A program made the position numbers and the translations under genes. From Halorhodospira halophila SL1 (GTDB lineage Bacteria > Pseudomonadota > Gammaproteobacteria > Nitrococcales > Halorhodospiraceae), in contig NC_008789.1 in NCBI RefSeq assembly GCF_000015585.1, positions 1,650,001 through 1,682,000 of the forward strand: DNA of 32,000 nucleotides. The letters run 5' to 3'. The notes under the pieces are model-generated. The model ran no database searches. It was not told the DNA's origin and worked only from the letters and a program-made list of their open reading frames with translations. Shown piece by piece: positions 1 to 28,197 of the stretch (positions within the stretch are counted from its first letter, which is position 1; every line of letters starts with the position of its first letter).

Positions 1-218
1 TCCGGTCGCACCGTCATGCCGCCGAGCAGTGGACCGAGCACCGAATCCGTATCGACGTAGACCTCGCTCGACGCCTCGTAGGTGTCGGGGAGGGCGTGGA
101 TGTACGCCCACCCGGGTATACAGACCAGCCAAGCGATGGGAAGGATCCACCACCGTCGACGCCAGGTCGCTCGCAGTTGGTGCAGCACTTCCTGGACGAC
201 CTGCTCCATCTGCCCCAT
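1..218 (-). CDS. Polysaccharide chain-length determinant (Wzz/EpsF-like), N-terminal fragment; the gene continues past the left edge
   Basis: Not in the ORF track because no stop falls inside the window. The minus-strand ATG at 218-216 is preceded by GGGGGAG. The frame stays open to position 1: MGQMEQVVQEVLHQLRATWRRRWWILPIAWLVCIPGWAYIHALPDTYEASSEVYVDTDSVLGPLLGGMTVRP. The WRRRW motif, TM helix and P-x-x-Y-x-A-x-x-x-V-Y-V-D pattern are typical of Wzz-family N-termini in EPS loci. Confidence 0.55.
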   Translation of the reverse strand, partial: MGQMEQVVQEVLHQLRATWRRRWWILPIAWLVCIPGWAYIHALPDTYEASSEVYVDTDSVLGPLLGGMTVRP

Positions 219-331
219 GGGTATCTGACTCCCCCAGCTTTCGTGCCGGAACCACTCTGGGGCAAGGCTAGCAGTGTCCTACGAGTCCGCAAGTTCGGTT
301 CGTAACCCTTTACAAAACCAGGACAACACCC

Positions 332-352
332 GGTGTCAGCGTTATTGACGCA
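332..352 (+). promoter_or_regulatory. Candidate enhancer (UAS) dyad for the PilZ-gene sigma-54 promoter
   Basis: GGTGTC-AGCGTTATT-GACGCA fits the YGT-N11-ACR element found upstream of five other sigma-54-type promoters in this window. It ends 76 nt before the -24 GG. Confidence 0.35.
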
Positions 353-426
353 AGCTTTGCACGGAAAACGCGAGGCTTTGCCGGGACACTTGCACACAGG
401 GGCTGAAGGGGATGACGACGACCGCT

Positions 427-442
427 TGGCACGGCACATGCA
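427..442 (+). promoter_or_regulatory. Sigma-54 (-24/-12) promoter upstream of the PilZ gene
   Basis: TGGCACGGCACATGCA matches TGGCACG-N4-TTGCW with correct GG-N10-GC spacing. It lies 108 nt upstream of the GTG at 550. Confidence 0.6.
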
Positions 443-500
443 GACCGGCCCCCGGCAATAGGCATTCGTAAGATCGCCGTTGCCCTGGACGCATAACCAC

Positions 501-545
501 GAACATCCATGAACCTCGGAGAACATCCACGACCCTCGGAGAACT
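501..545 (+). repeat. 20-bp tandem direct repeat (2.25 copies) in the 5' leader of the PilZ gene
   Basis: GAACATCCATGAACCTCGGA (501-520), GAACATCCACGACCCTCGGA (521-540) and GAACT (541-545). The second copy supplies the GGAG Shine-Dalgarno for the GTG at 550. Confidence 0.85.
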
Positions 546-549
546 TAAC

Positions 550-1119
550 GTGAACGCCCTCGACCTGGCAGAGGAGTTGGCCGATTTCTGGCTCCCGGTA
601 CTGGCGAAGCGCTCCTGGGAGGTGCGTGCCGACATGCTGGAGCAGATCCTTGGGCAGTTGGCGGACGACACCCCCGACCCCATGCTCTACCGCCGCCTGG
701 TCGCGTTTTTCCTGGCGACCGCGATCGATCGCCTTGCGGCCGATGAGCCGGTCGCCAGCCAGGCGCAGGCACGGATCTACATCCAGTCGGCCGATCCGAA
801 GCACCGCGCAATGGCCCTGGAACGCTTCCCCGAGGTCCACTCACGCCCTGCGTGGCGCGGCCACCCCCGTAACAACCCCCTGGACCGACGGGCCGCCCCG
901 CGACACCGCCTAACCGCCGAAGCAGGCATCGAAGCCGCCCGTACCAAGATCACGTGTCGGATCCACAATATCTCAAAGTCCGGAGCCCTAATTACCCTAC
1001 ATTTAATGCTTCAACCAAGCGATGAGGTTCACCTGACGCTGCGATCTCGCGACCAGCCGATAAACGGTCAGGTGGCGCGGGTTTCCGATCATGGCTGTGG
1101 CATCCTGTTCTGCGCATAA
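550..1119 (+). CDS. PilZ-domain (c-di-GMP-binding type) protein with an uncharacterised N-terminal domain
   Basis: GTG start with GGAG 8 nt upstream. The C-terminal region carries the two PilZ signatures: RRAAPR (RxxxR) and NISKSG (D/N-x-S-x-x-G). Confidence 0.7.
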   Translation: MNALDLAEELADFWLPVLAKRSWEVRADMLEQILGQLADDTPDPMLYRRLVAFFLATAIDRLAADEPVASQAQARIYIQSADPKHRAMALERFPEVHSRPAWRGHPRNNPLDRRAAPRHRLTAEAGIEAARTKITCRIHNISKSGALITLHLMLQPSDEVHLTLRSRDQPINGQVARVSDHGCGILFCA

Positions 1120-1309
1120 AGGAGACCTCGCGAGAACACCGGCCATCGCTCCGAGACTCGTCGCGAGCGCGAGTCCTTTACCCCACCGATAATATCGTTT
1201 TTACCTTAAATGACCCACCACGCTGCCGTGACGATGCTGTAGCATATTCATCGGTCCGATTCACGTTCAACCCCAAACGTCATGAGGATGAGGACAATTG
1301 GAGTTCGCG

Positions 1310-2032
1310 ATGTCATCCCCCTACTCCCGCTACAAGGTCATCCTGGCGACCGAAGATCAGGCGCGGTGCGCCCATTTCCAGTTACGATACATGGTTTATT
1401 GCGAAAAGAAGCAATATGAATCTTCAAGCCTTTTCCCGGATGGATATGAACGTGACGACCACGACAGTCACGCGCTCCACCTGCTTCTAAAATACACACC
1501 ACCGGGATCCCAGACGAATCGAAACGTGGGCACGATTCGTCTAATAAAAGGCGGAAACAAACCTCTTCCGATCGAGAACATCTCCGACCTGAACAGCAAT
1601 GAATTCACGAATGAATATAGTGGCGAGCTCTCGCGACTCGCTATCCATGAAGTGCCTTCAGGCCACGACACCCTCCCGCTGTTTATCCTCTGCCGTGCTG
1701 CACAGCACCACGCCAGGGGGTGTGGGATATCACGGCTATACTTCCTCGCTCGACCGGCGCTGGCCCGACATCTAACCCGTAACCATTTACCCTTCGAGCA
1801 GGCTGGTTCGCCTTGCTATCACCGCGGCCGCCGCATACCGTACGCGATGGACGTAAATGGCTTTGCTCGGGGGTTAGCGCGGTGGGAAAAGAAACTCATA
1901 AAACAGAAATTAGCCCCATCAAGTAAAACTGAAACCCTCCACGCCTACCAACATCCTAATAGACTTTCTGACATGGTTCCGAACGGCTGCCTGCAGACGA
2001 AGGGAATGCCGGAACCCAAAAAGGCGATATAA
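1310..2032 (+). CDS. PEP-CTERM/exosortase-system-associated acyltransferase (LuxI/FeeM-like N-acyl amino acid synthase fold), copy A
   Basis: FQLRYMVYCEKK...ERDDHD...GTIRLI...ELSRLAIHE matches the pattern of the exosortase-associated acyltransferase family (TIGR03694-like, from memory). ATG 1310 with GGAG 6 nt upstream is preferred over TTG 1298. GC is visibly lower than in neighbouring genes. Confidence 0.7.
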   Translation: MSSPYSRYKVILATEDQARCAHFQLRYMVYCEKKQYESSSLFPDGYERDDHDSHALHLLLKYTPPGSQTNRNVGTIRLIKGGNKPLPIENISDLNSNEFTNEYSGELSRLAIHEVPSGHDTLPLFILCRAAQHHARGCGISRLYFLARPALARHLTRNHLPFEQAGSPCYHRGRRIPYAMDVNGFARGLARWEKKLIKQKLAPSSKTETLHAYQHPNRLSDMVPNGCLQTKGMPEPKKAI

Positions 2033-2088
2033 GGACGACAGCATGGATTACATCGACTCCCGCCAGGCCAACAAGAGAACCAAAACCC

Positions 2089-2937
2089 ATGGATCGAAAC
2101 GAGCTAGTGAATCAATTCCAAGCCTATTTCGAGTATCAAGTAGCGCTGACACCGGAACAGCGCAGGGAGGCGTTCCAGCTCCGCTACGATGTCTACTGCA
2201 TGGAATACGGCTACGAAGACCCGTCGGACCACCCGGATGGGCAAGAGCAGGATGACTTCGACGAGAGCGCGTTAATTTGTACCGTACGGCACACTCAGAC
2301 CGGCCGCTTGGCCGGGTGCTTCCGGATTATCCTACCCGGAATGGAACCGTCTGAGCCTGAAAGGCTTCAAATGGAGGTGGACTGCACCGAAACCCTGTAC
2401 ACAAATGGTCGATTAGACTCGGGGCGGCACCCAAAGAATCTCCGACGCGATTCGGTTTGTGAAGTATCCCGCCTTGCTATCCACACCGACTTCCGCAAAC
2501 GCCCCGGCGAAAAGCAGACACGAATGGGTGCCGTTGACTGGCTTGACCTGCCCGAGGACCAGCGCCTTGCACACCTAAGGACCTTCCCGCTCCTTGGTTC
2601 CAGCCTGTTCTCCGCCGTCGCATACACCTGTGGACGGCTGGGACGAGATCACATCTTCGCGGTAATGGAACCACGTCTGGCTCGTCTACTTACCCGGGAA
2701 GGGATACGCTTCCAGCAGATTGGCGATGTCATGGAATACCATGGCGAGGAGCGCGCAGCATACTACAACTCACTGGAAAAATTCGTTGTGGAGACCGTTG
2801 CCTCCCCGCTGCTGAGACCACTCTATCGGATGGGGGAAAACCAGCTTGCACCAGGCTTGACGGTCTGGCTTGAGCGGCTTCGGAGCCATTCAAACGAGCA
2901 CTCGTGTGGCCGTAGGCCGGACAACAAGGTAAGCTGA
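2089..2937 (+). CDS. PEP-CTERM/exosortase-system-associated acyltransferase (LuxI/FeeM-like), copy B
   Basis: FQLRYDVYCMEYGYE...EQDDFDE...GCFRII...EVSRLAIHTDFRKR is paralogous to copy A. It has a longer insert between the conserved blocks. Confidence 0.75.
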   Translation: MDRNELVNQFQAYFEYQVALTPEQRREAFQLRYDVYCMEYGYEDPSDHPDGQEQDDFDESALICTVRHTQTGRLAGCFRIILPGMEPSEPERLQMEVDCTETLYTNGRLDSGRHPKNLRRDSVCEVSRLAIHTDFRKRPGEKQTRMGAVDWLDLPEDQRLAHLRTFPLLGSSLFSAVAYTCGRLGRDHIFAVMEPRLARLLTREGIRFQQIGDVMEYHGEERAAYYNSLEKFVVETVASPLLRPLYRMGENQLAPGLTVWLERLRSHSNEHSCGRRPDNKVS

Positions 2938-2938
2938 C

Positions 2939-3802
2939 ATGGCCCTCTTCGAATACCAGACCGCATTCAAGAGAACACTCGGGTGGATCACCGAGCAGGA
3001 GCAGGACACGCTTCGCAAAGCCACTGTGGCTATCGCAGGGCTAGGGGGTGTGGGAGGGAGCCACCTACTGACCCTAGCGCGGCTTGGCATCGGACGCTTT
3101 GCCGTCGCGGATTACGACGTCTTTGAACTGCACAACATGAACCGCCAGGCCGGCGCAACCATCAGCGCGCTGGGTCGGCCAAAAGTCGATGTGCTCTGCG
3201 AAAAAGCGCTCGACATCAACCCAGAGCTGGAGATCGAGCGATTCCCGAACGGGATTGACGCAGGCAATGTGGATCGGTTCCTTGATGGCGCTGACGTCTA
3301 CGTCGATGGCCTCGACTTCTTTGTCTACGATATACGGCAGCTGGTCTTTCGGCAGGCGGCCACTCGCCATATCCCTGCCTTCACCGCAGCGCCGCTGGGC
3401 ATGAGCGTCGCGTTCCTGGCGTTCCACCCCGGCGGGATCTCCTTCGAGCGCTATTTCCAGCTCGACCCGGAACTCGAAGAGGACGAAAAGGCTTTGCGGT
3501 TCATGCTGGGCCTTGCCCCTTCAGGACTCCACGCGGCTTCCTTGATCAACCCCTCCGCCATTGACCTCAAAGGGCAGTCGGGGCCATCCACCCCCATGGC
3601 CTGTGAACTCTGCGCCGGGGTCATGGGCACCGAGGTCCTCAAATGGCTCCTCCAGCGAGGTACCACCTACTGGGCCCCTTGGGCGGTGCAATTCGATGCC
3701 TACCGGATGAGGGTGCGGCGCACTTGGCGGCCCGGCGGCAACGCCCACCCCGTCCAACGCCTGGGCCTTTGGCTGGCAAGGCGCCGCCTGCTCGGGCAAT
3801 GA
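2939..3802 (+). CDS. ThiF/MoeB/E1-like adenylyltransferase, stand-alone
   Basis: Rossmann nucleotide loop AIAGLGGVGGSHLL, then DYDVFELHNMNRQ (the E1/ThiF D-x-D...N-L-N-R-Q block). Its ATG lies 1 nt after the TGA of the upstream acyltransferase (TGAcATG). Confidence 0.8.
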   Translation: MALFEYQTAFKRTLGWITEQEQDTLRKATVAIAGLGGVGGSHLLTLARLGIGRFAVADYDVFELHNMNRQAGATISALGRPKVDVLCEKALDINPELEIERFPNGIDAGNVDRFLDGADVYVDGLDFFVYDIRQLVFRQAATRHIPAFTAAPLGMSVAFLAFHPGGISFERYFQLDPELEEDEKALRFMLGLAPSGLHAASLINPSAIDLKGQSGPSTPMACELCAGVMGTEVLKWLLQRGTTYWAPWAVQFDAYRMRVRRTWRPGGNAHPVQRLGLWLARRRLLGQ

Positions 3803-3852
3803 TCCATTGTGCTGGTGCGCTGCGCCCCTCCTTCTTTTGCCCCTGATTCCCT

Positions 3853-6123
3853 CTAAGCGGATACCCGCCCCAGACTAAGCCTCGGAAAGCGCTTCGCAAG
3901 CACCGTGACTATCGCCGGCATGAGGAGCAAGTCGAAGAGCAGTGCCGCGACCAGACCGATGGCCGTAAGCAGACCAAAGGCCGCGGTTGGCTGGAAGTCT
4001 GAAGCAGCCAGAACCAGGAACTGCGCACACAGGACAATAGTCGTCGCCGTTACCGCCCGGCCCGTATGCTGCAACGCCCGGGCCAATGCAGCAACGACAC
4101 TGCTCCCTCTGCGCCGATAGAAGAGGAACCCGTGGTAGGTGTGGATGGTATCGTCCACCGCGATGCCGATTGCCACACTCGCCACCATGGCCGTCGCCAT
4201 ATCGAGCCAGACGCCGAAGGCCCCCATGACAATGAAGATGACCAGCAACGGAGATAGATTCGTCAGCATGGTCACAGAAGCCGCCGCCGCCGAGCGCCAG
4301 AGGACCAACATCAACACCGAGATCATCACGGCCACGGCAATGAGGCTACGAAGCTGCCCCTCTATGAGCAGTTCTTCCTGTTCGGCAAAGAGCCGCCCCA
4401 TCCCGGAGAGCTCCCAATCCAGAACCTCAACGCTCGAGTCAAGCTCCCCCCGAAACGCCTCAAGAGTCTGACCGATTTCGCGAGCGCCGGTGACGTTCAG
4501 GTTCATCAGGACGATGGCCCGCGTGAAATCCCGATTGACCAGGTCGTAGAGATCTCGCCCGTCGTATACGAACAGGTACTGGGCAATCAGATCTTGCCGA
4601 CCGGGCAGGGTCCGGAACTCCGGATCCTCGTCGTGGAACGCCCAGTGCATCTCCTCGAGCATATCCACCATCGATAGGGCGTAGTCCACCTCCTCCCGCT
4701 GTTCGGCCCAGCGCTGGAAGTCCCGAATCTCCTGCAAGGCAGCCGGATCCTGCAGCCCGTCGATAGCCTCGGCGTCGAAAACCGCCTCCACCACCATCAC
4801 ACCGGAGAGCGCGTCTTCGACCTTGCGGGTGTCTTGGGTGATGGGATGGCCCGCCGGGAAGAACTCGTAGAGATCACTCTCGACTTCGATCTTCGTGATC
4901 AGCGGCGCCGTCGCTGCAATCGCCAACGCGCTGACTGCGACGATCCAGCCCGCCCGACGCAGCGCGAATCCACGAGCCGCCTTAAGGATCGCGTCGAGGC
5001 CACCGATCCCGCGGCGCGGCAGCGACCAATTGCCGCGGTCGAAACGCGCGAGCAATGGTGGCAAAAGCACCATAACGACACAGTAGGCTAGGAGTACGCC
5101 GAACGCTGCGGTATACCCCAGGCTCTCGATGGGACGGATCGGACTCAGTGTGAGCGACAACAGCCCCGCAGCCGTTGTCAGAGCGGTAAACAATGCCGGC
5201 CTAGAGACCCTTTCCAAGCTATAGGCCAGCGCGCTTTCCTCGGTGTAGCCGCGTCGATGCGCGTGGCTCAGCGCGTTGAACAGGTGCATCAGCATTGCCA
5301 CCGTCAGCGCGGCCAGCAACGGTGGCAATATGGACGTCACCAGGGTATACGGATGACCCAGCAGCACCATCAGCGCCAGCGCAGGCGAGACGACCGCACC
5401 AATCGCCGCCCCTCCGGCAACCACCACCAGCCATCGCCGGAACATCCAGAACAGCAGTCCGAGGCCTACCGCTGTGGTGGCCGGAATAAAGACGGCGCTA
5501 TCCCGCAGCATGGAGCGCAGTTGCCAGACATCCAGCGCGACGTGGCCGGCAACCGCCTGTAGCCGCTCATCCAGGCCGGCCTCGGCCACCGCCTCGCGGA
5601 AGGCCCGCTCAAGCTCCAGCCGCTGCAGACTGTCTTCCAGTTCAGTCGGGCGCACGATGATCGCCAGGGCCGAACTATCCCGCGCAGCCAGCAACCCCGG
5701 TGCAAAACGATCTGCCCGGACGTGCTCCTGCCACTGACTCCCGCTCCGTTCTGGAATGGCGCCCGGGGGGACGATCTTCTCGACCGTGAAGCCATCGTCG
5801 ACGGCCCGAATCTGATCGAATGACGTTACACCCAGCACTCGCTCGACCTGCCGGTTCTCCTCCAGGTGTTGGATAAGCTCATGGAGCGCGCTAAGATTCT
5901 CGGGCTCGTAGATCTCCTCGCCGCCGAACAGGCCGACCAGGACCTGCTCCTCCGGGAACTCCTCGCGCACCGAAGCGTCGAAAAGGACGGCCGGTGCCTC
6001 CTTGGGAAAGTACGACTCCGGCGCATTGTCGAAGGTCAGGTTGAGCACGAGCGGGCCTGGCGCCAGCAGCAGCAACGCAAACAAGGTCGCCGCCAACCAC
6101 CGCGGCAAAGTCATACGCCTCAA
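3853..6123 (-). CDS. MMPL/RND-superfamily exporter (HpnN/MmpL-like lipid transporter type)
   Basis: 756 aa. It has an N-terminal TM helix and two large hydrophilic domains, each followed by a cluster of hydrophobic helices (about residues 210-400 and 590-745). TTG 6123 overlaps the upstream stop (TTGA); ATG 6114 is an alternative start. Confidence 0.75.
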   Translation of the reverse strand: MRRMTLPRWLAATLFALLLLAPGPLVLNLTFDNAPESYFPKEAPAVLFDASVREEFPEEQVLVGLFGGEEIYEPENLSALHELIQHLEENRQVERVLGVTSFDQIRAVDDGFTVEKIVPPGAIPERSGSQWQEHVRADRFAPGLLAARDSSALAIIVRPTELEDSLQRLELERAFREAVAEAGLDERLQAVAGHVALDVWQLRSMLRDSAVFIPATTAVGLGLLFWMFRRWLVVVAGGAAIGAVVSPALALMVLLGHPYTLVTSILPPLLAALTVAMLMHLFNALSHAHRRGYTEESALAYSLERVSRPALFTALTTAAGLLSLTLSPIRPIESLGYTAAFGVLLAYCVVMVLLPPLLARFDRGNWSLPRRGIGGLDAILKAARGFALRRAGWIVAVSALAIAATAPLITKIEVESDLYEFFPAGHPITQDTRKVEDALSGVMVVEAVFDAEAIDGLQDPAALQEIRDFQRWAEQREEVDYALSMVDMLEEMHWAFHDEDPEFRTLPGRQDLIAQYLFVYDGRDLYDLVNRDFTRAIVLMNLNVTGAREIGQTLEAFRGELDSSVEVLDWELSGMGRLFAEQEELLIEGQLRSLIAVAVMISVLMLVLWRSAAAASVTMLTNLSPLLVIFIVMGAFGVWLDMATAMVASVAIGIAVDDTIHTYHGFLFYRRRGSSVVAALARALQHTGRAVTATTIVLCAQFLVLAASDFQPTAAFGLLTAIGLVAALLFDLLLMPAIVTVLAKRFPRLSLGRVSA

Positions 6124-7652
6124 AACCGTCCCCTCCAGCCTGTCATGATGACGTCGTTATCCTGGTGGAACCCGCCGGCCGTCTCTTCCGCACCTTCGAA
6201 ATAGTGCGCCGACACGTAGAGTTCATGGGGTTCCCAGTCCACCCAGGCCACCTCCGGATTCAGGTAGATGTCCCGCTCATCGAGCCCGATCGCATAACGA
6301 AGCCTCGCCCGGAGACGCCGCTGCCAGGGCCGCCCCTCGATCTCGCCATTGAGGGTGACTTCATCGGCACGTTCCAGTAGGGACGGCGCATCAAGGTAGT
6401 GGCTGCCAACCAGCTGCACGTTCACTCGCAAATCCCCGTCCCCTGGAAACACCTCGGCCCCCACACCCCAATTGAAGGCCTCGAAATCCTCGCGCACGAA
6501 ATCTTCCTGCCGGGTCCCCGGCACGTCGCTGAGCCATACCGCTTCGGCGCGGTAGGTGACTCCGCCAGCGTCGATTGCACCGTCCACGCCGACCAGATAA
6601 CTGCGCGGATGGACCGCACGAAAGGTGTAATCGCCGGCCTGCACGGCCTCCTCCGGATCATCGAGGGCTCCGCGTGCCTCATCGCTCAACTCGTAGTACG
6701 GCGCGGAATGCCGGAAACGCTTGAACGTCGCAGCAGCGTCCCAGCCACGTCCGCCTCGGCTGACCCGAAGCCCGGCGCCGCCCTCGCCGTCGGTCTCTTC
6801 GACAAACCGCCCGTCTCGCACCAGATCCTGGAATTGGGGCTCCGACGGCAGGCCCAGAAAACGCCCACGCTGGCGATCAACCGGATGCCAGACGCTATCG
6901 CGATCCGGCATTTCCGCCTCCCGGAACCACGGCACCACCACGGCGTCGAACTCCCAACCGTTGGTGAAGAGCTGCCCACGAACCGCGGGAGCGGCGCGAC
7001 GCCGCTCACTGAGGTCGTCCAGGACAAAGCGTGACAGGTCCTCGACGCTCAGTCGGTCGGTCGGCGAGACCTCATCGATCCGGCCCCAGACCACCTGTTG
7101 CGCACCAGCGGTCAGACGCCATCCGCGACCCCGGTAGCGGAGGTACACCTCCCCGTAGTCGACATCGATCTCCTCGACACGTGGGCCCCCGCGCTGGTAA
7201 TGACCGTCCACGCGGCTCTCCACGCGAGCGCTCCAGGGGCCCCGGGGTTGCCAGTCCGCACGTCCTAGCAGGTGCCCGTGGTAGACCAGGTCGGCGTAAG
7301 AGGCACTGCGCGGCAGCCAACCCGCGTCCAGACGCACACTTTCGACTCCGAACGCCCAGTCCTCCGGGAGCCATGCCTCCGGTTGTGGCTTGTCCTCGTC
7401 GACGGCCTCCGGCGACGGATCGCCGATGCGTATACCGCCGTCGCCCTCGGCCCCGTTTTCCGCGAGCCGCCGCGACGGCTCCAAAGCCTCAAACTCCCCC
7501 CGGACCGGCTCCACCGAGTCACCGGCCGCATCGCCACGATCACCTATTGAGGCCAAGGCCACCCCATTAACCCCGATGGACGCCGACCCGAGCCCTAGCA
7601 CCACCAGCAGCGTCCGACACCGCGGAATGGGCCGGTCAAGGGCGGTAGGCAC
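6120..7652 (-). CDS. Putative outer-membrane beta-barrel protein (DUF1302-like)
   Basis: The protein ends in ...TGWRGRF, a C-terminal Phe typical of the OMP beta-signal. It is rich in alternating aromatic and charged strands and contains an AGAQQVVWGRIDE block. GTG 7652, preceded by GGGGGG, gives a signal-like N-terminus, MPTALDRPIPRCRTLLVVLGLGSASIGVNGVALA. The longer ORF-track start at 7784 would overlap the upstream gene by about 150 nt. Confidence 0.5.
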   Translation of the reverse strand: MPTALDRPIPRCRTLLVVLGLGSASIGVNGVALASIGDRGDAAGDSVEPVRGEFEALEPSRRLAENGAEGDGGIRIGDPSPEAVDEDKPQPEAWLPEDWAFGVESVRLDAGWLPRSASYADLVYHGHLLGRADWQPRGPWSARVESRVDGHYQRGGPRVEEIDVDYGEVYLRYRGRGWRLTAGAQQVVWGRIDEVSPTDRLSVEDLSRFVLDDLSERRRAAPAVRGQLFTNGWEFDAVVVPWFREAEMPDRDSVWHPVDRQRGRFLGLPSEPQFQDLVRDGRFVEETDGEGGAGLRVSRGGRGWDAAATFKRFRHSAPYYELSDEARGALDDPEEAVQAGDYTFRAVHPRSYLVGVDGAIDAGGVTYRAEAVWLSDVPGTRQEDFVREDFEAFNWGVGAEVFPGDGDLRVNVQLVGSHYLDAPSLLERADEVTLNGEIEGRPWQRRLRARLRYAIGLDERDIYLNPEVAWVDWEPHELYVSAHYFEGAEETAGGFHQDNDVIMTGWRGRF

Positions 7653-8475
7653 GTTCGCCCCCCGGATCCGACAACGCCGCGCGGGAGAAGAGATCTTGCG
7701 GCAACCCCTGGTCATAGACCACCTGCTCGACAAGGAAGCGAGTTTGGTGACCACTATCCAGGTCTTCCATGGTGCTCTCGACAACCGTCCAGTAGCCCTG
7801 GTGCTGCTCCAAGGCCTGCACCGTTAATCGCTTCGCCGGCTCGTCATCGCCCTGGTAGTAGTCGATTCGCAGGGGAACCAGCGACTCTTCATGAACCCAC
7901 TGATCGCGCAGGGTATACACGGAGTTGTCGCCCTCGACAGGGCGACTCTCCAGGCGGAAAACCGGAAGGCCCTCCAACTCATCCCGACCCACGTATTCGT
8001 GTTCGTCCTGCCGGACTTTACGATCGCGCAAATCCTCAAAGAAGAAGTCGCTGTCCACGAAGCGACCGCCCATCCGCTCCGAGGCCACCCTTCGAACCCG
8101 GTCCAGTGCCGGCAGGTAAAGCCATTGATCTGTGCTGCCGTCTGGATAGTCCCGTGTGAGCATCGCCGTATCGGCAACATCCGATGGGGCCGTGAACCGG
8201 ACCAGGTTCCAGACCTCCTCATCGTCAATCTGTAGACGGTACTCGTAGAACGAACGCTCCCGCTCGGAGCGACCGGGGCCATCGAGCACCATACGCCCCT
8301 GTTGCACGGCATCATCCCCTTCGGGGCGGTCATAGACCCACTGGGCCAGCTCCTCGCCATCGGCTGGCTCCTCATTCGCCGCCACCAGCGACACCAACCC
8401 CGCGGTCAGGAGTATCACGCCCCCCAAGACCCCCGAAAAAGGACTTGCCCGTAACATCCTGCCCACGGCCGACAT
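7636..8475 (-). CDS. LolA-like 'outer membrane lipoprotein-sorting' family protein
   Basis: Signal peptide, then VRFTAPSDVADTAMLTRDY...DQWLYLPALDRVRRVAS...FVDSDFFFEDL. This is characteristic of the LolA_like (PF17131-type) family. GGGGAGAG lies upstream of ATG 8475. Confidence 0.7.
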   Translation of the reverse strand: MSAVGRMLRASPFSGVLGGVILLTAGLVSLVAANEEPADGEELAQWVYDRPEGDDAVQQGRMVLDGPGRSERERSFYEYRLQIDDEEVWNLVRFTAPSDVADTAMLTRDYPDGSTDQWLYLPALDRVRRVASERMGGRFVDSDFFFEDLRDRKVRQDEHEYVGRDELEGLPVFRLESRPVEGDNSVYTLRDQWVHEESLVPLRIDYYQGDDEPAKRLTVQALEQHQGYWTVVESTMEDLDSGHQTRFLVEQVVYDQGLPQDLFSRAALSDPGGERAYRP

Positions 8476-8696: not shown

Positions 8697-8809
8697 ACTA
8701 AAAAGGTCAAGGGCAGATCGCTCCAGATCGGCGCAGCCTCCCGAGATGGCTCGATTAATGGCCCCCAACGAACGAAGCACAGGCACATCACGGCTGGAGA
8801 ATGACAACG

Positions 8810-9736
8810 ATGAAAACCCAACCCATGCTAGGCCTTTTCGCGTCCGCGCTGGTACTTGGAATGCTATCAGCGCCCGCCTACGCCGCCCAGTTCACCATTG
8901 ACCCGAGGGACTTTGCCGGTTTTGATGACGGCCCCACCGCCCCTCTTAATTCCCTTGGCTGGGAGCTTCGAACGGCTACGACCCAGTTCGGAACCAGCTC
9001 CGGAGAAAACTGGCTCCCGGACGGGGGGTCACGCTTTTTGGATATCGGATTCGGGCGAATCGACGCTTACAATCCATACGATATCGGGGATGACCAAATC
9101 GCTGGCATCCGCCAGCGGGATATGACCCTCAGATGGGACAACATCGCCGGCACCCTCGGTGCCGATGGGCAGCTAAGCTACGAGAGTGGGACCATTGATT
9201 TCTACTTTGGCGGGGACGGCATTGGATCGGGGGATCTTCGGAGCAGCGATCCTTTCGATACCAACAGTGCTGAGTGGCAGGCCGCCGGCTCCGGCGAGCA
9301 CGTCCTCTCGATGGAACTGAGTAGGGGGGACGCACTCGCCAGACTCATTACTGACGACGATGGCAATCTAGAGGCGATTGACGCCACCCAGTTTGACCTC
9401 TTCTTTGATATTACTTTTGCACGAGAGGGCTTCTGGGCTCTGACCGATAGCCGCCCCTTTGAAGAACTGATCGGGTTGCAACTGATTTCGGCGTTCGGTG
9501 AGGCCGGCGGTGCCACACAGAGAAACACGGTTCTTAACGACGATGAAAACGCTTTCACCGATGCCGATATCGCGCTCTACACCCACTACGCTGGCGTTCG
9601 GCGCGGTTCGCTGGAGTTCCAGGTGCCCGAGCCGAGCACGCTGATGCTCATGGGGGGATCGCTGATCCTGCTCGCCCTCGCCACCGGTGGCTTTCGTCGG
9701 CGTCAAAGCGAGTCCGGAGGACTAGCGGCCTCGTAG
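8810..9736 (+). CDS. PEP-CTERM sorting-domain protein, acidic paralog 1
   Basis: Signal peptide MKTQPMLGLFASALVLGMLSAPAYA. The C-terminus VPEPSTLMLMGGSLILLALATGGFRRRQ is a PEP motif, TM helix and Arg cluster. ATG 8810 (GGAGA 9 nt upstream) is preferred over 8801. Confidence 0.85.
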   Translation: MKTQPMLGLFASALVLGMLSAPAYAAQFTIDPRDFAGFDDGPTAPLNSLGWELRTATTQFGTSSGENWLPDGGSRFLDIGFGRIDAYNPYDIGDDQIAGIRQRDMTLRWDNIAGTLGADGQLSYESGTIDFYFGGDGIGSGDLRSSDPFDTNSAEWQAAGSGEHVLSMELSRGDALARLITDDDGNLEAIDATQFDLFFDITFAREGFWALTDSRPFEELIGLQLISAFGEAGGATQRNTVLNDDENAFTDADIALYTHYAGVRRGSLEFQVPEPSTLMLMGGSLILLALATGGFRRRQSESGGLAAS

Positions 9737-12763: not shown

Positions 12764-12857
12764 CATGGCTGCCCACTCGCCCACCGGCATCCGGCGCCGA
12801 AGACCAGGCTAAATCTGCGGGCCGCACGCGCCGCCCTCGCCCACCGCGCACCCCCAC

Positions 12858-12873
12858 TGGCACGCCCGATGCA
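12858..12873 (+). promoter_or_regulatory. Sigma-54 promoter upstream of PEP-CTERM gene 2
   Basis: TGGCACGCCCGATGCA lies 80 nt upstream of ATG 12953. It is identical to the 16-mer at 14395. Confidence 0.65.
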
Positions 12874-12952
12874 TCAGCGCGCTGGCGAACGTCACCCATG
12901 CGCTCAGTGTCAATAGCCACTTCAAGGAAACCAAGGAAAGGAGACCCAACCG

Positions 12953-13984
12953 ATGAGGACCCAACCGATTCTAAGTCTCGCGACATCTTCGGCGGTGATG
13001 CTCAGCGTGCTCGCCACGCCTGCCCATGCGACTCAGTTCACCATCGACCCCAGCGAATTCGACGGTTTTGATGGCTACGAGGGGGGAGCAACCGCCCCCC
13101 TTGACTCGCTCAGCTGGGAACTACGAACCGCAACCCAGCAATTCGGGCCTAGCGAAAACGAAAACTGGGTCCCGGATCGAGGGTCTTCGTTTATCGACCG
13201 CGGCGTCGGACGCATCCAAGACTACAACCCATTCGATACCGGCGAGGATGTGGAACTGGGCAGTATCGGTGCAAGGGACATGACCCTCAGATGGAATAAT
13301 ATTAAAGGCCGGACCGGCGAGGCGCTCGAGACCCAGGAACTACTGGACGAGGCCGATAATGACCTGCCTGTTGATGAGGTAGGTAATGGCCGGTCTCTGA
13401 TCTATGACAGCGGGACCATCGAGTTCTTCTTTGCCGGAGACGACGATCAGGAGCTGCGAGACCTGGAGACCCCCGAGCCGTGGCACACGGGCGACGATAT
13501 CTGGAACCAGGCTGGTAGTGGCAAAAAAGTCCTCGAGTTGAAACTGACAGGCGGCAGCGCACTGGGTGGTTTCGAGCTCGACGACGACGGCAACCTCCAG
13601 GGGATTGAAGCGACCCAGTTTGACCTCGATTTTGAGGTCACTGATGCGCTGGACGGCTTTTGGGCCACCGCAGATGGTCGTGCCTTTGAAGAACTCATCG
13701 GGTTACAACTAATCACGGCGTTCGGTGAGGCCGGTGGCGCTACAGAAAGAAGCACGGTCATCAACGAGGACGCGTACAGCGATAACGGTGTTGCAGTTGC
13801 AGAAGATTCCGAGGTCGAGCTTTACACCCACTACGCCGGGGGCCGGGAAGGCAAAATGAACTTCCAGGTACCCGAGCCGAGCACGCTGGTGCTCATGGGC
13901 GGGTCGCTCGTGCTGATCGCCCTCGCCACCACCGGTGGCCTGCGCCGGCGGCGAGGCGAGAGCGGAACGCCCGCTTCAGCTTAG
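12953..13984 (+). CDS. PEP-CTERM sorting-domain protein, acidic paralog 2
   Basis: AGGAGA RBS and signal peptide MRTQPILSLATSSAVMLSVLATPAHA. C-terminus VPEPSTLVLMGGSLVLIALATTGGLRRRR. Collinear with paralogs 1 and 3 but carries an extra acidic insert. Confidence 0.85.
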   Translation: MRTQPILSLATSSAVMLSVLATPAHATQFTIDPSEFDGFDGYEGGATAPLDSLSWELRTATQQFGPSENENWVPDRGSSFIDRGVGRIQDYNPFDTGEDVELGSIGARDMTLRWNNIKGRTGEALETQELLDEADNDLPVDEVGNGRSLIYDSGTIEFFFAGDDDQELRDLETPEPWHTGDDIWNQAGSGKKVLELKLTGGSALGGFELDDDGNLQGIEATQFDLDFEVTDALDGFWATADGRAFEELIGLQLITAFGEAGGATERSTVINEDAYSDNGVAVAEDSEVELYTHYAGGREGKMNFQVPEPSTLVLMGGSLVLIALATTGGLRRRRGESGTPASA

Positions 13985-14299: not shown

Positions 14300-14394
14300 C
14301 CTCCCCGGCCAAGCCCGCCTGCAGGGCACCCGCACCCGGGGCCATCCCCCTCAAGGGGCCGCACACGCGGCCCTCGCTCACCACCTGCCACCAC

Positions 14395-14410
14395 TGGCAC
14401 GCCCGATGCA
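14395..14410 (+). promoter_or_regulatory. Sigma-54 promoter upstream of PEP-CTERM gene 3
   Basis: TGGCACGCCCGATGCA lies 76 nt upstream of ATG 14486. Confidence 0.65.
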
Positions 14411-14485
14411 TCGGTCCTGGCGAGGCCGCATTTGGCCCCGGTTCCAGTAACCGCTCCAAGGACACGAAGGAAGGAGACCCAACCC

Positions 14486-15481
14486 ATGAAGATCCAACTA
14501 ATGAAGAAGCAATCGATGCTAGGCCTCGCGGCATCCTCAGCGGTGGTGCTGGGCCTGGTCGCCGCGCCCGCCCACGGCACGGACTTTACGGTCGACCCCG
14601 ATGGGGCGGGGTTCGACGGTTACGACGAGGGCCCGACCGAACCCCTCAACTCCCTCGGCTGGGAACTGCGAACGGCCACCCAGCAGTTCGGTACCAGCGG
14701 GGTGGGCATCCCGGTCGAGGATCCGAACGATGATGGTCAGGGTGGGACTTACATCCCCGACGTCGGATCGACTTTCGTGGACCGCGGATTCGGACGCATC
14801 GACGCCTACAATCCGTTCGATATCGGTGACGACGAACTCCGAGGGCTTGGTCAACGGGATATGACCTTGAGGTGGGACGACATCACCGGGACTATCGGTG
14901 AAGATGGCGAGCTGGACTACGACAGCGGAACCATCGATTTCTACTTTGGCGGGGACGGCCAAATCGGGTCGGACGCCCTTCGGAGCAGCGAAGATTTCGA
15001 CACGACCAGCGATGAGTGGCAATCCGCTGGCACCGGCGAGAACGTCCTTTCCATGGAGCTGACAGACGGCGATGCACTCGCCAGGGTCATAACCGACGAG
15101 GACGGCAACCTCACGGGGATTGACGCCACCCAGTTCGACCTCTTCTTTGACGTTACCGACGCCGATGAAGATTTCTGGGCGATAGCGGGTGGAGAGTCTT
15201 TCGCAGAGCTACTCGCGATGGAGATGGGGCTCTCGGTTTTCGGTGAGGCCGGCGGTGCCATACAGAGAAACACGGTTCTTAACGACGATGAAAACGCTTT
15301 CACCGATCCCGATATCGAGCTCTACACCCACTACGCGGGGGGCCGGCGGGGCTCGATGGAGTTCGAGGTGCCCGAGCCGAGCACACTGATGCTCATGGGC
15401 GGGTCGCTCGTGCTGGTCGCGCTCGCCGCCACCGGTAGCCTGCGCCGGCGTCAAAACGAGACGGGGCAGCTGGCTGCCTAA
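14486..15481 (+). CDS. PEP-CTERM sorting-domain protein, acidic paralog 3
   Basis: ATG 14486 follows GGAAGGAGA, the same leader as paralog 2; the ORF-track start at 14432 lies upstream of this RBS. Signal peptide MKIQLMKKQSMLGLAASSAVVLGLVAAPAHG. C-terminus VPEPSTLMLMGGSLVLVALAATGSLRRRQ. Confidence 0.85.
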   Translation: MKIQLMKKQSMLGLAASSAVVLGLVAAPAHGTDFTVDPDGAGFDGYDEGPTEPLNSLGWELRTATQQFGTSGVGIPVEDPNDDGQGGTYIPDVGSTFVDRGFGRIDAYNPFDIGDDELRGLGQRDMTLRWDDITGTIGEDGELDYDSGTIDFYFGGDGQIGSDALRSSEDFDTTSDEWQSAGTGENVLSMELTDGDALARVITDEDGNLTGIDATQFDLFFDVTDADEDFWAIAGGESFAELLAMEMGLSVFGEAGGAIQRNTVLNDDENAFTDPDIELYTHYAGGRRGSMEFEVPEPSTLMLMGGSLVLVALAATGSLRRRQNETGQLAA

Positions 15482-28057: not shown

Positions 28058-28143
28058 CAACCCGCCGCCACCTCTATCACGAGGCGCACCGCACTCTCCG
28101 TACCTCCCTGTACCGCCCACAGGTGCTGGCCTATCCCCCCTGT

Positions 28144-28159
28144 CGGCATAGCCCTTGCT
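28144..28159 (+). promoter_or_regulatory. Sigma-54-type promoter upstream of PEP-CTERM gene 4
   Basis: CGGCATAGCCCTTGCT is GGCAT-N5-TTGCT. It lies 39 nt upstream of ATG 28198. Confidence 0.55.
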
Positions 28160-28197
28160 TAGCAGTCGCGAATACAAAAAAGCGCGCGGAGGGATGC

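What the first reader, a model, noticed from the sequence alone, without database searches (positions are those of the whole stretch)
1310..3802. Two tandem LuxI/FeeM-like acyltransferases translationally coupled to a stand-alone ThiF/E1-like adenylyltransferase with no ubiquitin-like partner
Copies A and B both carry the FQLRY-x-VYC ... E-x-SRLAIH signature of the exosortase-associated acyltransferase family. That family is distantly related to acyl-homoserine-lactone and N-acyl-amino-acid synthases, and its product is unknown.

Copy B's TGA is followed 1 nt later by the ATG of a 287-aa ThiF/E1-like protein (GLGGVGG loop, NMNRQ block). No small ORF ending in Gly-Gly and no MoaD/ThiS-like ORF is nearby. 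The E1-like enzyme is therefore more likely to adenylate a small-molecule or peptide carboxylate, in the way MccB does.

Pairing an adenylating enzyme with two acyl-transfer enzymes suggests a two-step route to an acylated amino acid or peptide, which could be a signal or a lipid anchor. The module sits in a visibly lower-GC patch. Unlike its neighbours, it has no sigma-54 promoter that I could find.
Basis: partly seen in the sequence, partly recalled or inferred. Interest (0 to 1): 0.8.

Follow-up and report, generated by a model that had tools for sequence, protein, structure and literature searches.

The report
Oxidase-less acyl-amino-acid lipid cyclase module
Two N-acyl amino acid synthase genes and a ThiF-like ATP-dependent cyclase in the exopolysaccharide/PEP-CTERM locus of Halorhodospira halophila match the first two steps of the known bacterial oxazolone-lipid pathway but lack its usual oxidase, so this is a new variant of a known pathway.

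Summary
Three same-strand genes sit at 1310-3802: two old paralogs (31% identity) of the exosortase-associated acyltransferase family TIGR03694, and a 287-aa ThiF-like gene that starts 1 nt after copy B's stop. No ThiS/MoaD-like or Gly-Gly-ending ORF is nearby.

The chemistry is not unknown. TIGR03694 proteins are N-acyl amino acid synthases (NAS; Craig et al. 2011). NAS plus a ThiF-like cyclase plus a nitroreductase-type flavin oxidase (FDO) is the characterised oxazolone-lipid pathway (OxzAB 2021, TyzACB 2023, TrzAS 2025). The window's ThiF is 52% identical to the ThiF domain of a published OxzB homolog and belongs to the same NCBIfam family.

In 80 species, a NAS lies within 10 kb of this ThiF family in 62. 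An FDO is fused in 16 and separate in 40. A NAS-ThiF-FDO triple-fusion family exists.

What differs here is that no FDO occurs in about 38 kb around the genes. The window's ThiF clusters with seven Ectothiorhodospiraceae loci. All lack an FDO in the DNA held, have two NAS genes, and abut a LolA-like/DUF1302-like/RND exporter, inside an XrtA/PEP-CTERM locus.

Most likely the NAS enzymes make N-acyl amino acids, and the ThiF-like enzyme adenylates and cyclises them. The final product is unknown. This is a new variant of a known kind, of moderate interest.

The parts
427..442 (+). Sigma-54-type -24/-12 element (TGGCACGGCACATGCA), 108 bp upstream of the PilZ gene. It is a possible promoter for PilZ-NAS-NAS-ThiF.
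   Evidence: It matches TGGCAC-N5-TTGCA at 10 of 11 positions. The same quality of match precedes the PEP-CTERM protein genes at 12858-12873 and 14395-14410. Co-transcription with the module is inferred, not shown.
550..1119 (+). PilZ-domain protein (189 aa), a putative c-di-GMP receptor, conserved upstream of the module.
   Evidence: Pfam PilZ, E 2.5e-09. A homolog occupies the same position in Thioalkalivibrio loci L001, L003, L004 and L028.
1310..2032 (+). [quoted passage not shown]
   Evidence: TIGR03694 119.0 bits against a cutoff of 111.95, and Pfam Acetyltransf_5. It is 31% identical to copy B. It keeps the core residues but lacks the basic RRR patch after SRLAIH. A-type orthologs are found in 11 other loci.
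2089..2937 (+). NAS copy B: a TIGR03694-type N-acyl amino acid synthase, 282 aa. This is the subtype usually coupled to the ThiF gene.
   Evidence: TIGR03694 179.3 bits, plus Pfam Acetyltransf_5 and FeeM. B-type orthologs lie directly upstream of the ThiF homolog, with overlapping stop and start, in many loci.
2939..3802 (+). Stand-alone ThiF-like (E1-fold) enzyme of the oxazolone-cyclase family, 287 aa, with no oxidase domain.
   Evidence: NCBIfam PRK08223 473.8 bits against a cutoff of 266. It is 52% identical (E 1e-98) to the ThiF domain of the Nitrosococcus halophilus protein P0157 (669 aa), taken to be the OxzB homolog D5C057 (Nc4, 669 aa) listed by de Rond et al.. The AF2 model has pLDDT 88.7 and an E1-like fold. 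The catalytic motifs are kept.
3814..3826 (+). Weak terminator-like hairpin after the ThiF gene.
   Evidence: Consensus scan only: 5-bp stem with a poor T tract. Low confidence.
3853..6123 (-). RND transporter of the HAE3/MMPL type (756 aa), convergent with the ThiF gene.
   Evidence: Pfam MMPL x2 and sterol-sensing domain. TIGR00921 HAE3 at E 3.6e-48, below its cutoff. In Thioalkalivibrio it is in the same-strand string as the ThiF gene.
6120..7604 (-). Probable outer-membrane beta-barrel of the DUF1302/alginate-export type (494 aa as called; the longest ORF reaches 7784).
   Evidence: It is 100% identical to a Halorhodospira halophila SL1 protein that UniRef names 'Alginate export domain-containing'. 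Several homologs carry PF06980 (DUF1302). The protein ends in ...GWRGRF. The barrel itself was not modelled.
7636..8475 (-). LolA-like/DUF1329-like periplasmic lipid-binding protein (279 aa).
   Evidence: Pfam LolA_like E 5.5e-57 and DUF1329 E 2.3e-09.

Best explanation
This is a lipid-biosynthesis module of the oxazolone-pathway type that lacks the oxidase.

Proposed steps:
1. The two paralogous N-acyl amino acid synthases transfer a fatty acyl group from acyl-ACP or acyl-CoA to the amino group of an amino acid. The two copies probably differ in acyl-donor or amino-acid preference.
2. The ThiF-like enzyme uses ATP to adenylate the free carboxylate of that N-acyl amino acid. The amide oxygen then attacks, giving a 2-alkyl-5(4H)-oxazolone (azlactone).
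3. No flavin oxidase is encoded nearby, so the ring would stay saturated and chemically reactive. It would be an activated intermediate rather than the stable benzylidene oxazolones of OxzAB or TyzACB.
4. The neighbouring LolA-like protein, DUF1302-type outer-membrane barrel and RND pump probably carry the lipid to the cell envelope.
5. The module belongs to the XrtA/PEP-CTERM exopolysaccharide locus. It is probably expressed with it, possibly from the sigma-54-type promoter upstream of the PilZ gene.

Shown here: family memberships, conserved catalytic residues, synteny, fusions, and absence of the oxidase from ~38 kb.
Inferred: substrate, cyclisation, export, regulation and the identity of the final product.
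For: - NAS identity: both copies pass the TIGR03694 cutoff and keep the conserved core residues. The family is annotated and cited as N-acyl amino acid synthases linked to PEP-CTERM systems.
- ThiF identity: PRK08223 scores 473.8 bits. The same model scores the ThiF domain of a fused ThiF-nitroreductase protein at 428 bits and an FDO-adjacent ThiF at 462 bits. The window's ThiF is 52% identical to the ThiF domain of N. halophilus P0157, taken to be the published OxzB homolog D5C057.
- Conservation: of 98 columns that are >=95% conserved in 56 FDO-linked homologs, none is changed across most of the FDO-less clade.
- Coupling: a TIGR03694-type or FeeM-type NAS lies within 10 kb of the ThiF homolog in 62 of 80 species. 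The TIGR03694 type alone is within 300 bp in 21, often with overlapping stop and start. NCBIfam PRK14852 is a NAS-ThiF-FDO triple fusion.
- Published biochemistry: OxzB, TyzB and TrzS perform ATP-dependent cyclisation of N-acyl amino acids. In TrzS the ThiF step comes first, and the saturated cyclised intermediate accumulates when the oxidase is disabled.
- No FDO: no HMM hit in the 32-kb window and no nitroreductase in the gene kb further upstream.
- Clade behaviour: the seven closest species loci (Ectothiorhodospira, Thioalkalivibrio) all lack an FDO in the DNA held, all have two NAS genes, and all have the exporter trio.
- Export link: in Thioalkalivibrio, PilZ-NAS-NAS-ThiF-LolA-like-barrel-RND is one same-strand string with gaps of 4 bp or less between ThiF and the trio. 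The M. tuberculosis tyz cluster is likewise flanked by mmpL9.
Against: - No experiment exists on any FDO-less member.
- An FDO, or an anaerobic equivalent, could be encoded elsewhere in the genome. I could not scan the whole genome. The negative is weak, because only 120 of 2,473 hits are listed.
- Saturated azlactones hydrolyse readily, so a pathway that stops there would waste ATP unless something captures the product.
- The amino acid and acyl chain are unknown.
- In the window the exporter genes are convergent with the ThiF gene, not co-directional. Elsewhere the trio also occurs in PEP-CTERM loci further from the ThiF gene (L026, L042, L064, L065), so it may serve the locus in general.
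- I compared the protein with a published OxzB homolog, not with the assayed P. rubra OxzB or M. tuberculosis TyzB sequences.
Confidence: 0.6

Rival explanations
1. It is a complete, ordinary oxazolone or dehydro-amino-acid lipid pathway. The flavin oxidase, or an oxygen-independent substitute, is simply encoded elsewhere in the genome, and the final product is an unsaturated oxazolone or N-acyl dehydro-amino acid as in OxzAB, TyzACB or the stieleriacines.
For: - 56 of 80 related loci have a fused or separate FDO.
- In some loci the FDO is several kb from the ThiF gene (L002, L025, L027, L034, L046), so tight linkage is not obligatory.
- The ThiF protein is almost indistinguishable from FDO-linked ones at conserved sites.
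Against: - No FDO lies within ~38 kb.
- All eight members of the clade, and a second clade of six Thiodiazotropha-type loci, lack it over 20 kb.
- No Halorhodospira, Thioalkalivibrio or Ectothiorhodospira protein is among the 120 best hits to an Ectothiorhodospiraceae FDO (weak evidence).
- From general knowledge, H. halophila is an anaerobic phototroph. The characterised FDO step needs O2.
Confidence: 0.2
2. The ThiF-like enzyme works as an activating ligase rather than a cyclase. The adenylate, or a transient azlactone, is captured by an external nucleophile, so that an N-acyl-aminoacyl group is attached to another molecule such as a second amino acid, a deacetylated sugar of the exopolysaccharide, or a PEP-CTERM protein.
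For: - ThiF-like enzymes generally hand an adenylated carboxylate to varied nucleophiles (review).
- The module lies among exopolysaccharide genes, including a polysaccharide deacetylase and a FemAB-like protein upstream, and four PEP-CTERM proteins.
- Disruption of a family NAS in Methylomonas abolished a polysaccharide band.
- A stable end-product is otherwise missing when there is no oxidase.
Against: - No candidate transferase or acceptor is conserved with the ThiF gene across the FDO-less loci.
- All characterised relatives cyclise intramolecularly.
- This reading is purely inferential.
Confidence: 0.12
3. It is a canonical ThiF/MoeB-type E1 that adenylates a sulfur-carrier or ubiquitin-like protein encoded elsewhere, and its position next to the acyltransferases is coincidental.
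For: The E1-like fold has E. coli ThiF as the top sequence and structure match, and public annotations call homologs 'molybdopterin/thiamine biosynthesis adenylyltransferase'.
Against: - It scores far below every ThiF/MoeB/MoeZ equivalog cutoff (for example 90.3 against 159, and 80.9 against 275).
- It has only three Cys, so no four-Cys zinc site, and no rhodanese domain.
- No ThiS/MoaD gene is nearby.
- Synteny with NAS in 62 of 80 species, and fusions with NAS and FDO, are incompatible with coincidence.
Confidence: 0.03
4. It is an MccB/PaaA-like enzyme that modifies the C-terminus of a ribosomal peptide (a RiPP pathway).
For: MccB and PaaA are among the structural matches, and the enzyme has no protein partner.
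Against: - It lacks the N-terminal peptide-binding domain. The alignment to MccB begins at MccB residue ~109, and TM-scores normalised to MccB are only ~0.54.
- No conserved short precursor ORF was found beside the ThiF gene in 80 loci.
- The conserved partners are NAS and FDO.
Confidence: 0.03

Closest known systems
OxzAB oxazolone synthetase system (Pseudoalteromonas rubra and >50 proteobacteria; de Rond, Asay & Moore, bioRxiv 10.1101/2020.06.11.147165)
   Same: - An N-acyltransferase gene lies immediately upstream of a ThiF-family gene on the same strand.
- The window's ThiF is 52% identical to the ThiF domain of N. halophilus P0157, taken to be a listed OxzB homolog.
- It belongs to the same NCBIfam families, PRK08223 and PRK14851.
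- TIGR03694-type NAS genes accompany fused OxzB-type proteins in 10 of the 16 fused loci.
   Different: - OxzB is a ThiF-nitroreductase di-domain enzyme. Here the nitroreductase/FDO domain is absent and no separate FDO is nearby.
- There are two NAS paralogs instead of one.
- The module is embedded in an XrtA/PEP-CTERM locus next to an RND exporter trio. The paper does not mention such a context (0 occurrences of exosortase or PEP-CTERM).
TyzACB of Mycobacterium tuberculosis (PMC10404671)
   Same: - The ThiF-like cyclase TyzB is stand-alone (318 aa), as here.
- It acts on N-acyl amino acids made by the NAS-fold enzyme TyzA.
- The cluster is flanked by an MmpL-family transporter, mmpL9.
   Different: - tyzB is in an operon with the FDO gene tyzC. 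Here there is no FDO.
- The organism is an actinobacterium with no PEP-CTERM system.
- I did not measure sequence identity to TyzB.
TrzAS of mycobacteria and Rhodococcus (PMC12856293)
   Same: - The logic is the same. TrzS shows that the ThiF step alone yields a saturated cyclised intermediate when the oxidase is inactive. That is the reaction proposed here as the end of the encoded pathway.
- trzAS neighbours c-di-GMP turnover genes. Here a PilZ gene precedes the module.
   Different: - TrzS is a fusion of the Rv1355c family. The window protein scores only 74 bits against that model, whose cutoff is 476.
- Its acyl chains are short (C3-C9) and its amino acid is tryptophan. Substrates here are unknown.
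PEP-CTERM/exosortase-associated N-acyl amino acid synthases (Craig, Cherry & Brady 2011, J Bacteriol 193:5707; TIGR03694)
   Same: Both acyltransferase copies are members by HMM, and they lie within a PEP-CTERM locus, exactly as that family is defined.
   Different: As far as I could see from citing papers, that work links NAS genes to exosortase systems but not to a ThiF-like partner. I could not read the paper itself.
TcdA (CsdL), tRNA t6A cyclodehydratase
   Same: It is a stand-alone E1-like enzyme that uses ATP to cyclise an N-carbamoyl/acyl amino-acid carboxylate into an oxazolone-type ring, without any oxidase. It is among the closest solved sequences.
   Different: - Its substrate is a modified tRNA base.
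- The window protein scores 50 bits against a cutoff of 304 for the TcdA model.
- TcdA has no NAS partner.

Membership tests
TIGR03694 PEP-CTERM/exosortase system-associated acyltransferase (N-acyl amino acid synthase) | Whole-protein HMM score at or above the curated cutoff (111.95 bits) | tested here: met
   Copy A scores 119.0 bits (two stretches, only just above the cutoff). Copy B scores 179.3 bits.
TIGR03694 PEP-CTERM/exosortase system-associated acyltransferase (N-acyl amino acid synthase) | Located in a genome, and near genes, of the PEP-CTERM/XrtA system | tested here: met
   PrsT, PrsK, PrsR, the TIGR03013 glycosyltransferase and the TIGR03027 export protein all pass their cutoffs in the window. 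Four proteins have PEP-CTERM tails. Further EPS genes lie upstream. The exosortase gene itself was not recognised among the ORFs scanned in the window.
TIGR03694 PEP-CTERM/exosortase system-associated acyltransferase (N-acyl amino acid synthase) | Conserved LuxI/FeeM-type core residues (R-x-x-VY ... E-x-SR) | tested here: met
   Both copies keep R32, Y36, E43, E53, D55, D58, R79, E125, S127, R128, G219 and R222 (copy B numbering). Copy A lacks the basic patch at 136-138 and has R in place of E194.
TIGR03694 PEP-CTERM/exosortase system-associated acyltransferase (N-acyl amino acid synthase) | Makes long-chain N-acyl amino acids | not testable with these tools
   This needs expression and LC-MS.
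Oxazolone-lipid biosynthetic system (OxzAB / TyzACB / TrzAS) | NAS-type N-acyltransferase gene adjacent to the ThiF-like gene | tested here: met
   Copy B's stop is 1 nt before the ThiF start. The same adjacency is seen in many species.
Oxazolone-lipid biosynthetic system (OxzAB / TyzACB / TrzAS) | ThiF-like protein belongs to the OxzB/TyzB-type cyclase group | tested here: met
   It is 52% identical (E 1e-98) to the ThiF domain of N. halophilus P0157, taken to be the published OxzB homolog D5C057. PRK08223 scores fused, FDO-adjacent and window proteins alike. Conserved columns are retained. It was not compared directly with the assayed P. rubra OxzB or M. tuberculosis TyzB.
Oxazolone-lipid biosynthetic system (OxzAB / TyzACB / TrzAS) | Flavin-dependent oxidase of the nitroreductase superfamily, fused to or encoded next to the ThiF-like protein | tested here: not met
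   There is no FDO HMM hit in the 32-kb window, and no nitroreductase Pfam in the gene kb either side on the source contig. Absence from the whole genome was not tested.
Oxazolone-lipid biosynthetic system (OxzAB / TyzACB / TrzAS) | ATP-dependent cyclisation of an N-acyl amino acid to an oxazolone | not testable with these tools
   Only the ATP-binding and catalytic motifs can be seen: GxGGxGG, D58, N-x-NRQ, K82 and D126.
Canonical ThiF/MoeB sulfur-carrier adenylyltransferases | Score at or above the equivalog cutoffs | tested here: not met
   Best ThiF model 90.3 bits against 159. TIGR02356 80.9 against 275.25. MoeB models 55-75 bits against 266-449.
Canonical ThiF/MoeB sulfur-carrier adenylyltransferases | Partner ThiS/MoaD-type protein ending in Gly-Gly | tested here: not met
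   There is none in the window or within +/-10 kb. A distant gene cannot be excluded.
Canonical ThiF/MoeB sulfur-carrier adenylyltransferases | Four-Cys zinc site (two CxxC motifs) | tested here: not met
   The protein has only C87, C222 and C225.
MccB/PaaA-type peptide-modifying E1-like enzymes | N-terminal peptide-binding (clamp) domain of about 100 residues before the adenylation domain | tested here: not met
   Query residue 21 aligns with MccB residue 109-112. The protein is 287 aa against about 350. TM-score normalised to MccB is about 0.54.

The most novel reading that the evidence does not exclude
The oxidase-less NAS-ThiF module makes a saturated, chemically reactive N-acyl azlactone on purpose, as an activated N-acyl-aminoacyl donor. 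After export by the adjacent RND/LolA-like/barrel system, this donor would lipidate an envelope acceptor, such as deacetylated sugars of the exopolysaccharide or the processed PEP-CTERM proteins. That would supply the long-missing functional link between N-acyl amino acid synthases and exosortase sorting.

A chemically related alternative is ATP-driven epimerisation through the azlactone, giving N-acyl-D-amino acids.
Probability: 0.12. Interest if true: 0.85.

Novelty: new variant of a known kind. Interest (0 to 1): 0.45.

Why it matters
[quoted passage not shown] Since 2021, oxazolone lipids have been known without a biological role. In the papers I could search, the two literatures are not connected.

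This locus and its relatives show that the same ThiF-type cyclase family sits inside PEP-CTERM loci in many proteobacteria, with markers within 10 kb in at least 33 of 80 species. In 21 of those 80 species it occurs with a NAS but with no oxidase in the DNA held for the locus.

If the oxidase is truly absent, these bacteria make something other than the known benzylidene oxazolones. Candidates are a reactive azlactone, an epimerised lipid or a conjugate. The operon link to an RND/LolA-like/outer-membrane exporter points to the cell surface.

That gives a concrete, testable handle on what these lipids do in floc and biofilm formation. It also offers a stand-alone, oxidase-free azlactone-forming enzyme of possible biocatalytic interest.

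Tried and rejected
- **Canonical ThiF/MoeB role:** rejected on HMM cutoffs, the missing zinc site and the missing carrier gene.
- **MccB-like RiPP role:** rejected. There is no peptide-clamp domain, and no conserved short ORF was found beside the ThiF gene in 80 loci.
- **Recent horizontal island:** not supported. There are no tRNAs. The low GC is limited to the two NAS genes. Both the A-type and B-type NAS and the whole arrangement are conserved across Thioalkalivibrio and Ectothiorhodospira at 38-64% identity.
- **Riboswitch or known RNA in the 190-bp gap before copy A:** no Rfam family matched anywhere in the window.
- **Sigma-70 promoter scan of 1-4200:** nothing found.
- **First sigma-54 scan:** it had an indexing error and returned nothing. 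It was corrected.
- **Craig et al. 2011 (PMC3187218):** not held, so its content is taken from citing papers and from my own recollection.
- **AclA (PDB 9egb), the best TM-score match:** nothing in the held literature.
- **Whole-genome absence of an FDO:** I could not test it. The indirect protein search is only weakly informative.
- **ORF at 2043-2255:** it has a good AGGA upstream and overlaps the start of copy B in another frame. I judged it spurious, because the TIGR03694 match of copy B already starts at profile position 2.

Full report
**What is there.**
- Copy A runs 1310-2032 (240 aa, GGAG 7 nt upstream).
- Copy B runs 2089-2937 (282 aa).
- A 287-aa ThiF-like gene runs 2939-3802. Its ATG follows copy B's TGA after a single base.

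Both acyltransferases pass the curated cutoff of NCBIfam TIGR03694, 'PEP-CTERM/exosortase system-associated acyltransferase' (119.0 and 179.3 bits against 111.95). Both hit Pfam Acetyltransf_5, and copy B also hits FeeM. They share only 31% identity and represent two old subfamilies. A-type orthologs occur in 11 other loci and B-type in 40. Copy A keeps all core residues but lacks a basic RRR patch after the SRLAIH motif.

The ThiF-like protein hits Pfam ThiF (E 2.6e-41). It matches the uncharacterised NCBIfam equivalog PRK08223 far above cutoff (473.8 against 266). It falls far below every ThiF, MoeB, MoeZ, TcdA or UbaA cutoff.

**Organism and context.**
The exact ThiF protein is encoded on NCBI contig NRRO01000007.1 of assembly GCA_016583685.1. 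A neighbouring protein is 100% identical to one from Halorhodospira halophila SL1. The window is therefore from H. halophila or a near-identical strain.

The surroundings are a typical XrtA/PEP-CTERM exopolysaccharide locus.
- PrsT, PrsR, PrsK, the TIGR03013 glycosyltransferase and the TIGR03027 exporter all pass their cutoffs.
- Four proteins end in VPEPSTL-hydrophobic-RRR sorting signals.
- The 10 kb upstream of the window holds Wzz/GNVR, a ParA-like kinase, an AAA ATPase, a polysaccharide deacetylase and a FemAB-like gene.

The NAS-ThiF genes sit in the middle of this locus. I did not recognise the exosortase gene itself in the window.

- No ThiS/MoaD gene and no credible Gly-Gly-ending ORF is nearby.
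- The low-GC patch is real but covers only the NAS genes (GC3 0.58 and 0.64). The ThiF gene is host-typical at 0.75.
- No sigma-54-type site lies in the 190-bp gap before copy A. A 10/11 match lies at 427-442, upstream of the PilZ gene (550-1119) that precedes the module here and in Thioalkalivibrio. Matches of the same quality precede two PEP-CTERM protein genes.
- No Rfam family and no tRNA is present.

**What the pairing is.**
I aligned the ThiF protein with 21 homologs and fetched 80 loci from 80 different species, which are beta- and gammaproteobacteria and related MAGs. Using HMMs built from the loci themselves:
- A TIGR03694-type NAS lies within 10 kb of the ThiF homolog in 39 loci, and within 300 bp in 21.
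- A second family, confirmed as Pfam FeeM (E 1.3e-49), accounts for 23 further loci. In total, 62 of 80 have a NAS nearby.
- Sixteen ThiF homologs are 650-690 aa (one ORF was called at 817 aa) and carry a C-terminal nitroreductase domain.
- Of the 64 short forms, 40 have a separately encoded homolog of that domain, usually immediately downstream on the same strand.
- NCBIfam PRK14852 (989 positions) aligns with a FeeM-type NAS at positions 84-222, with the ThiF domain at 312-590, and with the oxidase from about 619. It is therefore a natural three-way fusion.

**Literature.**
This triad is a published pathway.
- De Rond, Asay and Moore showed that OxzA, an N-acyltransferase, makes N-acyl tyrosine or phenylalanine. 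OxzB, a ThiF-nitroreductase di-domain enzyme, converts it to oxazolones in an ATP-dependent reaction.
- In M. tuberculosis the pathway is split into TyzA, the stand-alone ThiF homolog TyzB (ATP-dependent cyclisation) and the flavin oxidase TyzC (O2-dependent desaturation). It is flanked by mmpL9.
- In TrzAS, cyclisation by the ThiF domain must precede desaturation. The saturated cyclised intermediate accumulates when O2 is limiting or the oxidase is crippled.
- The same three genes are conserved in producers of N-acyl dehydrotyrosines in Planctomycetota and other phyla.
- The acyltransferase family has been known as N-acyl amino acid synthases linked to exosortase systems since Craig et al. 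2011. I could not read that paper, but it is cited to this effect. antiSMASH has a detection rule based on it. Disruption of a member in Methylomonas LW13 abolished a polysaccharide band.

**Direct link to the window.**
De Rond's supplementary table lists Nitrosococcus halophilus Nc4 D5C057 (669 aa) as an OxzB homolog. I take the N. halophilus Nc 4 protein P0157 (669 aa) to be that entry. The window's ThiF is 52% identical to its ThiF domain over 270 residues (E 1e-98). PRK08223 scores the ThiF domain of a fused protein at 428 bits and an oxidase-adjacent ThiF at 462 bits, comparable with the window's 474. The AlphaFold model is confident (pLDDT 88.7, pTM 0.90). It has the E1-like fold of ThiF, PaaA, MccB and MoeB, but without MccB's N-terminal peptide clamp and without a four-Cys zinc site.

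**What differs from the known system.**
- The window has no oxidase. An HMM of the C-terminal domain of the 16 fused proteins finds nothing in any frame of the 32 kb. The gene calls for 10 kb further upstream show no nitroreductase.
- In a neighbour-joining tree of the ThiF domains, the window groups with three Ectothiorhodospira and four Thioalkalivibrio loci. All of them have no oxidase in the DNA held, two TIGR03694-type NAS genes, and an adjacent trio of a LolA-like/DUF1329-like protein, a DUF1302/alginate-export-type protein and an HAE3/MMPL RND pump.
- In Thioalkalivibrio, PilZ, NAS, NAS, ThiF, LolA-like, barrel and RND form one same-strand string with 4-bp gaps or overlaps from ThiF onward. 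In the window the trio is inverted, at 3853-8475.
- A second oxidase-less clade of six Thiodiazotropha-type loci has one NAS overlapping the ThiF start.
- Altogether 24 of 80 loci lack the oxidase, and 21 of those have a NAS.
- The oxidase-less proteins have not diverged at functional sites. Of 98 columns that are >=95% conserved in 56 oxidase-linked homologs, none is altered in most of the window's clade. Only K28A and F67M are clade-specific.

**Mechanism proposed.**
The NAS enzymes make N-acyl amino acids. The ThiF-like enzyme adenylates their carboxylate and cyclises it to a 5(4H)-oxazolone. Without an oxidase the ring remains saturated and reactive.

The fate of that species is inferred only. 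It could be captured by a nucleophile, hydrolysed after epimerisation, or oxidised by an enzyme encoded elsewhere. Export by the adjacent RND system and co-regulation with the PEP-CTERM locus are also inferences from gene order.

From general knowledge, H. halophila is an anaerobic phototroph, so an O2-dependent oxidase would be of little use. This offers a rationale for its absence, but Thioalkalivibrio is aerobic, so it cannot be the whole story.

**Limits.**
- I could not scan whole genomes for a distant oxidase gene. A search with the oxidase of an uncultured Ectothiorhodospiraceae bacterium returned no Halorhodospira, Thioalkalivibrio or Ectothiorhodospira protein among its 120 best hits, out of 2,473. 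That is only weak support.
- The loci are one per species but cluster in genera, for example Janthinobacterium and Thioalkalivibrio.
- ORF calling in the loci was by longest ORF, not a gene finder.
- Substrates are unknown.

**Verdict.**
However, the pathway type has been known since 2021 and the acyltransferase family since 2011.

What appears unreported in the literature I could search is twofold. One is the oxidase-less form. The other is its placement in exosortase loci beside a lipid exporter.

I rate it a new variant of a known kind, with interest 0.45.

Noticed in passing
window 8801-9736, 12953-13984, 14432-15481 (+): Three paralogous secreted proteins (p311, p343, p349) end in near-identical PEP-CTERM signals (VPEPSTL[ML]LMGGSL..RRR) and share 61-89% identical DNA blocks. 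They are likely the main exosortase substrates of this locus.
   Followed up: partly
window 12819-12875 and 14356-14412 (+): A 57-nt block (86% identical) is duplicated upstream of p343 and p349. It ends in the same 16-mer, TGGCACGCCCGATGCA, a 10/11 sigma-54 -24/-12 match. It is preceded by a GC-rich stretch (GGGCCGCACGCGCCGCCC) that could be a binding site for the PEP-CTERM-box regulator PrsR.
   Followed up: partly
window 28123-28908 (+): A fourth, unrelated PEP-CTERM protein (p261; Pfam PEP-CTERM motif E 0.00096, 19.6 bits, just below the gathering cutoff of 20.7) lies in a second low-GC patch (GC 0.54, GC3 0.59), similar in composition to the NAS genes.
   Followed up: no
window 6120-7604 (-); homologs P0123-P0136: The DUF1302/alginate-export-like protein is 494 aa here. 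Its Thioalkalivibrio and metagenomic homologs are 600-800 aa, with an extra SPOR (PF05036) or LysM (PF01476) peptidoglycan-binding domain.
   Followed up: no
NCBIfam PRK14852 (NF011425), via L044:9159-9992, L014:9956-11953 and L011:10859-11968: This 989-position 'hypothetical protein' model is a natural NAS-ThiF-nitroreductase triple fusion, that is, a whole oxazolone pathway in one polypeptide. PRK14851 is the ThiF-nitroreductase (OxzB-type) fusion and PRK08223 the stand-alone cyclase. All three are still named 'hypothetical protein' in NCBIfam.
   Followed up: partly
L011, L033, L037, L038, L045, L050, L052, L080 (Janthinobacterium/Duganella), ThiF at ~10001: In these Oxalobacteraceae, a ThiF gene and an abutting FDO gene occur with no NAS of either type within 10 kb. 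This is the converse partial arrangement to the window's.
   Followed up: no
PDB 9egb (AclA, Tenacibaculum discolor), fold search of the ThiF model: The best TM-score match (0.72/0.83) is a 2025 structure of an enzyme called AclA 'in complex with substrate'. I found nothing about it in the held literature, so its chemistry may be a useful comparison that I could not make.
   Followed up: partly
window 25025-25945 (-) and 23911-25167 (-): An HprK-related kinase A (TIGR04352, 364.9 bits) lies next to an NTP_transf_5 nucleotidyltransferase. This is a conserved pair of unknown function that also appears in the published Rubrivivax/Thauera PEP-CTERM cluster table.
   Followed up: no
window 2043-2255 (+): A 70-aa ORF with a good AGGA-N6-ATG start overlaps the beginning of NAS copy B in another frame. 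It is probably spurious, because copy B's family match already begins at profile position 2.
   Followed up: partly
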